Part shown: piece by piece, positions 10,261-34,869 of the stretch | How the letters are laid out: every line of letters starts with the position of its first letter | Numbering within the stretch: the stretch's first letter is position 1 | Assembly: GCA_951406725.2 (NCBI GenBank) | Contig: OX597824.1 | Span: 84,196,001-84,260,000, forward strand | Source of the DNA: Octopus vulgaris | Taxonomy: Eukaryota | DNA: 64,000 bases | Direction of reading: 5' to 3' | Notes under the pieces: generated by a model | What the model saw: only the letters and a program-made list of their open reading frames with translations | What the model was told of the DNA's origin: nothing | The model's database searches: none | Program-made: the position numbers and the translations under genes

Positions 10261-10925
10261 GGCGCAGTAGTGGCTGTGTGGTAAGTAGCTTGCTTACCAA
10301 CCACATGGTTCCGGGTTCAGTCCCACTGCGTGGCACTTTGGGCAGGTGTCTTCTACTATAGCCTTGGGCTGACCAAAGCCTTGTGAGTGGATTTGGTAGA
10401 TGGAAACTGAAAGAGGCCCGTCGTATATATATGCATGCGTATATATATGTGATCGCTTGACGCTTGACAACCGATGGTGGTGTGGTTACATCCCCGTAAC
10501 TTAGCGGTTTGGCAAAAGAGACCGATAGAATAAGTACTACATCATCATCATCATCATTTAGCGTCCGCTTTCCATGCTAGCATGGGTTGGACGGTTCAAC
10601 TGGGGTCTGTGAAGCTGGAAGGCTTCGTCAGGCCCAGTCAGATCTGGCAGTGTTTCTACGGCTGGATGCCCTTCCTAACGCCAACCACTCCGTGAGTGTA
10701 GTGGGTGCTTTTTACGTGCCACCTGCACAGGTGCCAGACAGAGCTGGCAAACGGCCACGAACGGACGGTGCTTTTACGTGTCACCGGCACGGGGCCAGGC
10801 GATGCTGGCAACAGACACGAACGGATGGTTTACAAAAATAAGTCCTGGGTTCGATTGGCTCGACTAAAGGCAGTGCTCCAGCATGGCCACAGTCAAATGA
10901 CTGAAACAAGTAAAAGAGAAAAAGA
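10261..10925 (+). mobile_element. SINE family A interrupted by a family D element (~10540-10828, minus strand)
   Basis: Family A reads ...gaataagtacta | insertion | ggtttacaaaaataagtcctggg... Confidence 0.88.
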
Positions 10926-16265: not shown

Positions 16266-16690
16266 ATCATCGTCGTCATCGTTTAACGTCCACTCTCCAT
16301 GCTAGCATGGGTTGGACAATTCGACTGAGGGCTGGCGAACCAGATGGCTACACCAGGCTCCAGTCTTGATCTGGCAGAGTTTCTACAGCTGGATGCCCTT
16401 CCTAATGCCAACCACTTTACAGAGTATAGTGGGTGCTTTCACGTGCCACCGGCATGGGGGCCTGTCAGGTGGTACTCGCAACAACCTCGCTCGAATCATT
16501 TTATACATGCCAACGGCACAGGTGCCAGTAAGGCGATGCTGATAACGACCTCGCTCGAATGGTGCTTCCTACATGCCACCGGCACAGAAGCCAGTTAGCA
16601 GCTCTGGCAACGATCACGCTCGGATGGTGCTCTTAGCACCCTACTAGCACGGGGCACAAGTGCCAGTAAAGCAAAGCTGGTAACGAGTGT
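16266..16690 (-). mobile_element. Family D element with internal tandem units
   Basis: D tail plus several '(a/g)tgccaccggcac' units. Confidence 0.85.
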
Positions 16691-33003: not shown

Positions 33004-33382
33004 CACACACACACATACAGGTGTGTGTGCGTGTGTGTGTGTGTGTGTATCTTCTGACATATATGTTTATATCATATGGTTTAGCTAACGAATTAGGAAT
33101 TGAATTACATTTTATAATTTCCAGCACAATCTATATTAAAGTTCACCGAATGACTACAACAGTGAGATGTGTGTGAATGTTAGTGTGTATGCACATATGT
33201 ATGTGCTGTATACATATTCATATATGTGTTAGCATATGCCTGCTTCAATCATCAGCGTACTTAAAGCAATTTCCTGTGACGACAGTGAAGAATTCCGTTG
33301 CAAAATAGAAAAGGGAAAAGAAAACAGAATTAAAATTCCAAATTAAAAAAATTTTATTACCTTAGAGTAAAATATATGTATG

Positions 33383-34352
33383 TCATTATTCAGTTTATTT
33401 CAAGATAACTTGCCAAAGGAGAAAGAGCCAGTTTCTCACCTAGATCCAAGGCTCTTTCATTGGAATTTCAACATCGACAACATGGTGTGTATGTATGTAT
33501 GTATGTATGTATGTATGTATGTATGTATGTATGTCATTATTCAGTTTATTTCAAGATTTATTGCCAATAGAAGAACCTAGGTCCAAGGCTCTTTCATTGG
33601 AATTTCAACATCGACAACATGGTATGTATGTATGTATGTATGTATGTATGTATGTATGTATGTATGTATGTATGTATGTATGTATGTATGTCATTATTCA
33701 GTTTATTTCAAGATTTATTGCCAATAGAGAAAGAACTAGTTCCTAACCTAGATCCAAAGCTTCTTCATTGGAATTTCAACACCAACAACAGGGTATTTTT
33801 GTTTGTTTGTTTGTATGTATGTATGTATATATGTATGCAAAAATGTATGTATTCTCATGCATATAGTTGCATATATAGACAAGCTCATATATATTTAAAT
33901 GATAAACTTCTGGAAAGTTTTACAGATTTTTGCAGTTCCAGTGATGGATTGGATCTGTATTCTTTGATTTAACTTTCTCCTTTTTGGTTTTGAGAAGCCT
34001 AAATTCTCAAGCTTGGTGTTTAGGCAGTGTGTTACATATCCTAGGGCCCCAATAATTACAGGTACCAACCTGAACTTGTAATCTGGTTAGAGTAAGTGCA
34101 GATTTCTCAATAGTTCAGCATAGGTGCTCTCTCTTTCACTGATCTTCAGCTTTATGTTAACATCCTCTGGGCAGCTAATTTCCACAACTGTACACAGTTT
34201 CTCTTCTCTATCCCAAATCATTATATCAGGTCTGTTGTGCTTACATTTTATTAGGGTCTTCAATGTATTCAGTTTATTTCAAGATTTCCTGCCACTAGAA
34301 GAACCTAGATCCTAGGCTCATTCATTGGAATTTCAACATCATCAACAGGGTT
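33383..34352 (-). mobile_element. Four head-to-tail 5'-truncated copies of an RLE (R4/Dong-like) non-LTR retrotransposon, family 1
   Basis: Shared 3' end (plus strand tattcagtttatttcaagat...cattggaatttcaaca) at ~33383, 33533, 33691 and 34266; the first three are separated by (TATG)n, the fourth abuts the truncation point of the third. Confidence 0.85.
33895..34260 (-). pseudogene. Restriction-like endonuclease (PD-(D/E)xK-type) domain of non-LTR retrotransposon, family 1
   Basis: KTLIKCKHNRPDIMIWDREEKLCTVVEISCPEDVNIKLKISERESTYAELLRNLHLL*PDYKFRLVPVIIGALGYV...SITGTAKICKTFQKFII*; one internal stop. Confidence 0.88.
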
Positions 34353-34364
34353 TTTGTATGTATG

Positions 34365-34762
34365 TCTCTTGAATCTTTTTAATTCTTATAAATCTTCCAC
34401 TGAGGAGGGAGCCAGTTTCCAACAAAGATACATGGCTCCATCTTTGGGATGTAGTTAGCACACAGAAGAATTTACATTTGGAACTTGAGAAAAGTCTTGC
34501 ATATTTTTACTGTTCCACTCACAGATTGCACTTGTAATGTGTGAATATGCCGGTTAATTTCTCTTTCTGAAAATCCCAGTTTGTCCAGATTCTCCTTTAA
34601 GCATTTACTAACAAAACTTAGTACTCCAATTACTATTGGTATGAATATGAATTCATAGCCTGGATATAGAAGCCGGAGATTTCAAAGCAGTTATCCATAG
34701 ATGTCCTCTTTTTCTTTGATTTTCAAAGAGATATTTATATCTGCAGGGTCGCTGACCTCTAT
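34365..34762 (-). pseudogene. Second, divergent RLE retrotransposon 3' fragment (family 2); ORF remnant 34472-34759
   Basis: EVSDPADINISLKIKEKEDIYG*LL*NLRLLYPGYEFIFIPIVIGVLSFVSKCLKENLDKLGFSEREINRHIHTLQVQSVSGTVKICKTFLKFQM*; collinear with family 1; (TATG)n on both sides. Confidence 0.85.
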
Positions 34763-34869
34763 GATCTATGTATGTATGTATGTATCTGTGTATGAGGGGT
34801 TAGAGTGTGTGTATGTGTGTTCATATGTCTGCATGTTTGTATGTGCACCTGATTGTTACCAGCATCGCC

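What the first reader, a model, noticed from the sequence alone, without database searches (positions are those of the whole stretch)
33376..34790. Five stacked insertions of two RLE retrotransposon families in a (TATG/CATA)n microsatellite
Seen: four same-orientation copies sharing one 3' end (element strand ...cttgaaataaactgaata, mostly followed by catacatac...), 5'-truncated at different points. One copy retains an RPD...VEISCP...VPVIIGALG endonuclease domain. A fifth, clearly divergent paralog (EVSDPAD...IPIVIG...SVSGTVKICKTF) is also bounded by (TATG)n. Established: RLE-bearing non-LTR elements (R2/R4/NeSL clades) are often site-specific, and Dong-type R4 elements insert in microsatellites such as (TAA)n. 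Inference: two families share a (CATA)n target and repeatedly re-hit the same locus, each insertion regenerating the target. I do not know whether this specificity is already catalogued for this lineage. The ORF track misses both remnants.
Basis: partly seen in the sequence, partly recalled or inferred. Interest (0 to 1): 0.72.

Follow-up and report, generated by a model that had tools for sequence, protein, structure and literature searches.

The report
Sister retrotransposons target CATA microsatellites
Two old, high-copy sister families of jumping genes sit inside (CATA)n repeats in one fixed orientation across this genome, likely because they insert there on purpose, but the five pieces stacked in this window come from at most four insertions, since one piece is a local recombinant of its neighbours.

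Summary
The five pieces exist: one remnant of family B and four 3' ends of family A, all on the minus strand. Both families are RLE-type non-LTR retrotransposons, likely R4/Dong-like (clade not tree-tested against named elements).

The shared target holds genome-wide. (CATA)n lies at the 5' junction of 45 of 69 A copies and 39 of 63 B copies, opposite-strand repeat at 2 and 3, background 2.9%; 24 of 30 intact A 5' ends.

Two claims fail. A1, A2 and A4 all start at a (CATA)n inside family A's own 3' UTR, not at different points. A2 is a local mosaic: its 5' half is shared only with A1, its 14-bp deletion only with A4, each pattern twice in 2.8 Gb, both here. So at most four insertions.

Stacking is common (22 of 114 loci). 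Copies are decayed. Microsatellite-targeting Dong (TAA) and ACAY-targeting Waldo are known; I found no CATA-targeting RLE element in eight paper searches. This scan noted R4/Dong-like elements at (TATG)n before, in another genome (e1-9551269).

The parts
34366..34765 (-). Family B remnant: last ~97 codons of the RLE domain (two internal stops; stop codon 34472-34474) plus 3' UTR; 5'-truncated
   Evidence: tblastn to full-length relative P0010, 54% identity; 86-87% identity to long B copies; 2283 first-look candidates for its 3' end in G000
34766..34790 (-). (CATA)n tract at B's 5' junction
   Evidence: sequence
34356..34365 (-). Short (CATA)n between B's 3' end and A4
   Evidence: sequence
34267..34355 (-). 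A4: family-A terminal unit only, with a 14-bp deletion; followed by ACAT (34263-34266)
   Evidence: alignments; deletion pattern twice in the genome, here and in A2
33895..34262 (-). A3 ORF remnant: RLE domain (RPD...VEISCP...), one internal stop; terminal stop 33895-33897
   Evidence: 52% identity to P0010 aa 1036-1157; 86-89% to full-length A copies
33801..33894 (-). A3 3' UTR, first part (33843-33894), and the family's internal (CATA)n/(CAAA)n (33801-33842)
   Evidence: same layout in 41 of 57 sampled loci that keep ORF or UTR upstream of the unit
33692..33800 (-). A3 terminal unit, the true 3' end of family A, homologous to B's whole 3' UTR
   Evidence: 1734 first-look candidates in G000
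33624..33691 (-). (CATA)17 tract
33535..33623 (-). A2: local recombinant unit, 5' half as in A1, 14-bp deletion as in A4
33487..33534 (-). (CATA)11 tract
33384..33486 (-). A1: family-A terminal unit only; short decayed repeat follows (33370-33383)
   Evidence: contigs of two other runs join the unique flank to A1's 3' end (table 8)

Best explanation
Two sister RLE-type retrotransposon families (A and B, likely R4/Dong-like) sit in (CATA)n repeats in one orientation genome-wide, likely because their endonuclease nicks the TATG strand to prime reverse transcription, and this stack is likely four such insertions plus one local recombinant. Shown: the protein anatomy, the oriented repeat at 5' and 3' junctions, A's internal (CATA)n about 110 bp from its 3' end, and A2's mosaic make-up. 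Inferred: each insertion leaves repeat on both sides and A brings a third, so an occupied site stays a target. Inferred: the cDNA end anneals to the upstream half of the target by short homology, which makes A's internal repeat a favoured truncation point and yields 110-bp unit-only copies (A1, A4). Inferred order: B, A4 and A1 first (order among them unknown), A3 into A4's tail, A2 by unequal exchange or duplication plus conversion between A1 and an A4-type unit.
For: Target: (CATA)n score >=13/16 at 5' junctions in 29/40 and 16/29 A loci, 25/36 and 14/27 B loci; opposite strand 2/69 and 3/63; background 147/5000; intact A 5' ends 24/30, opposite 0/30; truncation points spread along the ORF, so the repeat is not an element-encoded 5' piece; 3' flanks 98/141, opposite 4/141. 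Protein: Pfam RVT_1 above cut-off in two B copies; CCHC knuckle and RLE in A copies; full-length A copies cover relative P0010 from aa 7 to 1157; P0010's five PDB matches are four named R2 or R2-type proteins, best E 3e-28; A and B group together, FastTree support 0.97. Stacking: 22/114 loci against 3.4% expected (upper bound 7%), p=1e-5; 27/29 same strand; 20 adjacent unit pairs 85% identical against 87% for random pairs. Junction homology: mean 1.6 bases at 48 clean junctions against 0.78 simulated, p=3e-7. Unit-only copies 16/57 against 10/57 cut in the much longer first UTR part, with no diagnostic variants (best p=0.017 of 112 columns). A2.
Against: About a third of 5' junctions (24/69 A, 24/63 B) lack the repeat at the threshold; later insertions, deletions and decay would explain many, but I did not show this one by one. 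A first run with SINE-interrupted references gave lower counts (37/67, 36/61). No empty pre-insertion site was seen. Flanks cannot separate a sequence-specific nick from priming by tail homology. Loci were the best-scoring hits of each search, not a random draw. No named R4 or Dong protein turned up. Pfam RT was scored on B copies only; for A the RT rests on motifs and tblastn.
Confidence: 0.8

Rival explanations
1. Homology-selected priming: the endonuclease is not sequence-specific; the element RNA ends in (CAUA)n and only nicks inside (TATG)n give a primer that pairs with it. The same oriented pattern would result.
For: 3' ends of both families run into the repeat in a fixed phase; 5' junctions show excess microhomology, so base pairing with the target matters.
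Against: Most 5' flanks are long arrays, not the far more numerous 4-6 base matches. Four of five RLE clades, R4 included, are described as mostly target-specific (PMC4640811, passages).
Confidence: 0.25
2. Five independent insertions at this locus: A2 came from a source element that already carried both sets of variants.
For: Genome-wide, adjacent units usually look independent (15 of 20 pairs share no rare variant).
Against: Both diagnostic patterns occur only in this locus, twice each, in 2.8 Gb; A4's best genomic match is A2.
Confidence: 0.03
3. All short units (A1, A2, A4) arose after insertion, by recombination between an element's internal (CATA)n and flanking (CATA)n (loss of the body, or tandem gain of the unit), so the stack holds only two or three true insertions.
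For: A2 proves local recombination here; L082 shows a local duplication of ORF end plus UTR; direct repeats flank each segment.
Against: A1, A3 and A4 share no rare variants with each other and are 83-85% identical, like random pairs, so they descend from separate copies even if bodies were lost later.
Confidence: 0.15
4. The 110-bp unit is a separate short non-autonomous element (SINE-like) mobilised by the A/B proteins.
For: 16 of 57 sampled units have no upstream family-A sequence; L101 holds six units in a row.
Against: No variant separates unit-only from linked units after 112 tests; the unit is homologous to B's 3' UTR directly behind B's stop codon; no common 5' head precedes it.
Confidence: 0.07

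Closest known systems
Dong (Bombyx mori), DongAg, DongBg; R4 clade
   Same: RLE-type non-LTR elements inserted in microsatellites (PMC3636483 and PMC3812793, passages). Dong-R4 is annotated as abundant in octopus genomes: 51 families, 92.7 Mb in O. vulgaris (PMC13282606, passages and one supplementary table).
   Different: Dong targets TAA; these two target CATA. Family A has a copy of its target inside its 3' UTR. Clade membership not tested against named sequences. PMC3812793 lists Dong among APE-type elements; PMC3636483 and PMC5678591 treat it as R2-group/RLE, which I follow.
Waldo (WaldoAg1, WaldoAg2, earwig Waldo)
   Same: Targets ACAY microsatellites, which include ACAT = (CATA)n (PMC3812793, passages).
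   Different: APE-type elements (R1 clade by the cited title); A and B carry a C-terminal RLE and their full-length relatives show no APE domain. Same target reached with a different nuclease.
R2 (R2Bm, R2Tg)
   Same: RT, CCHC knuckle, RLE order; the only solved structures matched by relative P0010.
   Different: No N-terminal CCHH zinc finger in P0010, P0018, P0065; not in 28S rDNA; thousands of dispersed copies.
Togen (NeSL-related) and some HERO families
   Same: RLE elements specific for microsatellites, Togen for (TG)n (PMC4640811, passages).
   Different: Different repeat; relationship to A and B not tested.

Membership tests
RLE-encoding non-LTR retrotransposons (R2 group) | Reverse transcriptase in one long ORF | tested here: met
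   RVT_1 above cut-off in L208 and L210; full-length A copies L173 and L183 align along P0010, L173 from aa 7 to 1157, in frameshifted pieces
RLE-encoding non-LTR retrotransposons (R2 group) | CCHC knuckle CX2-3CX7-8HX4C behind the RT (spacing from PMC5678591, passages) | tested here: met
   CRLC-X8-H-X4-C in A and B copies
RLE-encoding non-LTR retrotransposons (R2 group) | C-terminal restriction-like endonuclease (PD..D/E motif, recalled), no APE domain | tested here: met
   RPD...VEISCP in A3, aligned to the C-terminus of P0010; no APE family hit in P0010, P0018, P0065. No Pfam RLE model scored; the call rests on motif and position.
R4/Dong clade | RT phylogeny with named R4 and Dong elements | not testable with these tools
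   No named R4 or Dong sequence among 87 hits or the 120 listed of 1412; the tree of 109 sequences has unnamed relatives only
R4/Dong clade | N-terminus without CCHH zinc fingers (recalled; the paper that would state it was not held) | tested here: inconclusive
   No zinc-finger hit at the N-terminus of three full-length relatives; fits, but the criterion is from memory
Dong (sensu stricto) | TAA microsatellite target | tested here: not met
   Junctions are in (CATA)n
R2 clade | N-terminal zinc fingers and 28S rDNA target (PMC7650587, passages) | tested here: not met
Waldo | APE endonuclease | tested here: not met
   C-terminal RLE instead
Waldo | ACAY target | tested here: met
   (CATA)n = (ACAT)n at 84 of 132 5' junctions
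SINE (for the 110-bp units) | Own lineage with a distinct 5' head | tested here: not met
   No diagnostic variants, no shared head
Sequence-specific RLE elements | Endonuclease cuts the target specifically | not testable with these tools
   Needs a cleavage assay

The most novel reading that the evidence does not exclude
An undescribed lineage of R4/Dong-like RLE retrotransposons has switched its nuclease specificity from TAA to CATA, converging on the target of the unrelated APE-type Waldo. One family carries its own target in its 3' UTR, so it seeds expanding microsatellites, sheds 110-bp mini-copies and builds recombining stacks. CATA- and TAA-targeting relatives in one genome would make the rules of RLE target choice directly testable.
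Probability: 0.45. Interest if true: 0.55.

Novelty: new variant of a known kind. Interest (0 to 1): 0.4.

Why it matters
RLE retrotransposons are studied as tools for site-specific gene insertion, and each natural target adds to what is known of how they choose DNA. A tetranucleotide target for a Dong-like lineage, shared by two families about 30-35% apart in DNA, is a usable comparison with TAA-targeting Dong. The internal target in family A explains a class of short repeats that could be misfiled as SINEs. Limits: the copies are decayed, microsatellite targeting is a known habit of this clade, and these families touch only 2 of 55 (CATA)n arrays in a 600-kb sample, so they are not the main source of the repeat.

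Tried and rejected
Polymorphism of A2 in other individuals: contigs of five public runs laid in two calls. The first skipped the repeat stretch that holds A2. In the second no listed piece bridged the deletion, but pieces are filtered and cut, so this is inconclusive either way. Depth figures were not used as copy numbers.

Named R4/Dong references: none, so no clade tree. Two key papers were not held.

A4 as the stranded end of an A copy split by B: no family-A body upstream of B in the window; not supported.

5' ribozyme: Rfam on six intact 5' ends gave only repeat-driven hits below gathering scores.

3' hairpin common to A and B: weak consensus fold, -1.72 kcal/mol, 2 of 14 pairs with two-sided change, on 8 A and 8 B ends; suggestive only.

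PDB search with the A C-terminal piece alone found nothing relevant.

The junction count (87/153) held duplicates and B leak-ins and was discarded. One search was misled by SINEs in three references. One search is the count used; it dropped 5 of 68 B loci (L214, L034 duplicates; L220, L238, L046 edge) and 0 of 69 A loci, and one A locus (L065) duplicates a locus outside that count.

Target-site duplications: not tested; they cannot be read inside a perfect repeat.

A and B as the main source of CATA arrays: rejected.

Full report
WHAT IS THERE. On the minus strand the region reads: (CATA)n, family-B remnant (34765-34366), short (CATA)n, A4 (34355-34267), ACAT, A3 (34262-33692), (CATA)17, A2 (33623-33535), (CATA)11, A1 (33486-33384), short decayed repeat. 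A3 encodes an endonuclease domain with one stop, B its last 97 codons with two stops; they are 52% and 54% identical to the C-terminus of a full-length unnamed relative, P0010. The window lies at G000:C11:84196001-84260000 in a 2.8-Gb genome. From its composition I take the animal to be likely an octopod; this is inference, not established.

THE FAMILIES. First-look candidates number 1734 for A's 3' unit, 2283 for B's 3' end and 18,813 for a protein piece; these are not copy numbers. Sixty evenly spaced 10-kb stretches held 5 A units and about 2 B-like ends, i.e. roughly 23,000 A ends (95% range 7,600-54,000). Family A is about 4 kb long: L173, L183 and L167 share one 5' end with different unique flanks. 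RT scores above the Pfam cut-off in two B copies; the CCHC knuckle and RLE follow. P0010 matches only five PDB sequences, R2 or R2-type proteins. In a tree of 109 RT-region sequences A and B group together (support 0.97) inside a cluster of unnamed relatives. No named R4 or Dong sequence was available, so 'R4/Dong-like' rests on anatomy and recall. Copies are decayed: units differ 7% from the column majority, and nearest neighbours among 40 long A copies were 85-91% identical. I saw no young copy in these samples.

THE TARGET. I mapped 5' junctions against long copies and scored the best 16-base match to (CATA)4 at the junction. At 13/16 or better: A 29 of 40 and 16 of 29; B 25 of 36 and 14 of 27; opposite-strand repeat 2 of 69 and 3 of 63 (5 B loci dropped as duplicates or edges). 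Background was 147 of 5000 positions. Intact A 5' ends: 24 of 30, opposite 0. Truncation points are spread along the ORF, so the 5' repeat belongs to the site, not the element. 3' flanks match in 98 of 141 units. About a third of junctions lack the repeat, and the loci were best hits rather than a random draw.

THE INTERNAL REPEAT. Family A has ORF, about 55-75 bases of UTR, a (CATA)n of about three units in its shortest form, then a 110-bp terminal unit homologous to B's whole 3' UTR. The internal repeat often grows past 100 bases and takes later insertions. Of 57 loci chosen by the unit alone, 31 reach the ORF, 10 stop in the first UTR part and 16 are unit-only (one or two of the 16 have decayed upstream pieces). 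Unit-only copies carry no diagnostic variant, so they are not a separate SINE. At 48 clean junctions the overlap between repeat and element averages 1.6 bases against 0.78 simulated (p=3e-7). I infer that the cDNA end anneals to the upstream target, and that the internal repeat is the best such annealing site. Later recombination between repeats could give the same product.

THE STACK. Stacking is general: 22 of 114 loci hold two or more 3' ends within 1.5 kb each side, against 3.4% expected (7% at the upper bound), and 27 of 29 extra ends lie on the same strand. Twenty adjacent pairs are no more alike than random pairs (85% against 87%; 15 share no rare variant), so most stacks are separate insertions. 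This window is partly an exception. A1 and A2 share three uncommon variants in their 5' halves (7, 0 and 5 of 101 other units). A2 and A4 share a 14-bp deletion; three other units have a shorter 11-bp deletion at the same GGTT repeat and one a 15-bp deletion. Exact patterns for both features occur twice in the genome, both here. A2 is thus a recombinant of A1 and an A4-type unit. One unequal crossover with a haplotype lacking A3, or an old duplication followed by conversion, would each give it; I cannot choose. A1, A3 and A4 share no rare variant. At most four insertions remain. Reads from other runs did not settle whether A2 is polymorphic, and an assembly artefact is unlikely but not excluded. 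With about 92 arrays per Mb and about 12 elements per Mb, and each element leaving two or three arrays around it, a neighbour rate near 20-30% is what random choice among targets would give (rough estimate), so no special hotspot is needed.

MECHANISM. Shown: anatomy, oriented repeat at both junctions, internal repeat, microhomology, stacking, A2 mosaic. Inferred from established target-primed reverse transcription: the RLE nicks the TATG strand, the 3'-OH primes on the RNA 3' end, and the second junction forms on the upstream repeat. Not separable here: specific nicking against selection by tail homology.

WHAT IS KNOWN. PMC3812793 (passages): Dong, DongAg and DongBg target TAA; Waldo targets ACAY. 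PMC3636483 (passages): DongAg and DongBg are R2-group elements in microsatellites. PMC4640811 (passages): CRE, R2, R4 and NeSL are mostly target-specific; Togen targets (TG)n. PMC5678591 (passages) and PMC7650587 (passages): domain layout. PMC13282606 (passages and one supplementary file): Dong-R4 is abundant and partly recent in O. vulgaris; the word 'target' is absent from its main text. PMC8967140 and PMC9115989 (passages): Dong-R4 in cephalopods, no target stated in the passages shown. PMC13586686 (passages): nothing relevant. Kojima and Fujiwara 2004 and the original Dong paper were not read. Eight searches (listings only, apart from the papers named) showed no CATA-targeting RLE element. 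Repbase, Dfam, subscription journals and preprint supplements could not be searched and may hold it. This scan has an unchecked note of R4/Dong-like elements at (TATG)n in another genome (e1-9551269); it is a lead, not support.

VERDICT. A real, well-supported target preference shared by two sister families; a new variant of a known habit. The headline of five independent insertions is wrong by at least one. Interest 0.4.

Noticed in passing
L101 (G000:C4:149268520-149271619), also L141: Six family-A terminal units in a row, 69-85% identical between neighbours; an older, longer stack of unit-only copies.
   Followed up: partly
L082, around 1436-1800: Tandem pair of ORF end plus first UTR part sharing private-looking variants; likely a second case of local duplication.
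   Followed up: no
L038, L041, L055, L179 5' junctions: A few copies have the repeat in the opposite orientation (TATG) at the 5' junction, possibly head-to-head with another element.
   Followed up: no
window:34850-35070: A very abundant short repeat (SINE-like, ATG-repeat tail) lies just beyond B on the opposite strand; the same repeat sits inside the internal repeat of the A copy in L063.
   Followed up: no
window:38535-38617: 72% match to family A's first UTR part on the plus strand, next to a (CATA)5; perhaps a further decayed fragment.
   Followed up: no
L232:128-2413 (+): Uninterrupted 761-aa open frame of a different RT-type element upstream of a B copy.
   Followed up: no
L213 and L214 (G000:C5, about 660 kb apart, opposite strands): Two B copies with the same 5' junction and flank; likely a segmental duplication.
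   Followed up: no
A and B 3' UTRs (alignment A2): Weak shared stem around GAGCC...GGYTC; the 14-bp deletion of A2 and A4 removes its 3' arm.
   Followed up: partly
window:20702-21041, 16504-16631, 10704-10829: Tandem arrays of 60-66 bp units with related consensus words, apparently pieces of a SINE-like repeat.
   Followed up: no
L271-L330: (CATA)n and (GATA)n were far commoner than eight other tetranucleotide arrays tested (73 and 65 runs against 0-9 in 600 kb).
   Followed up: no
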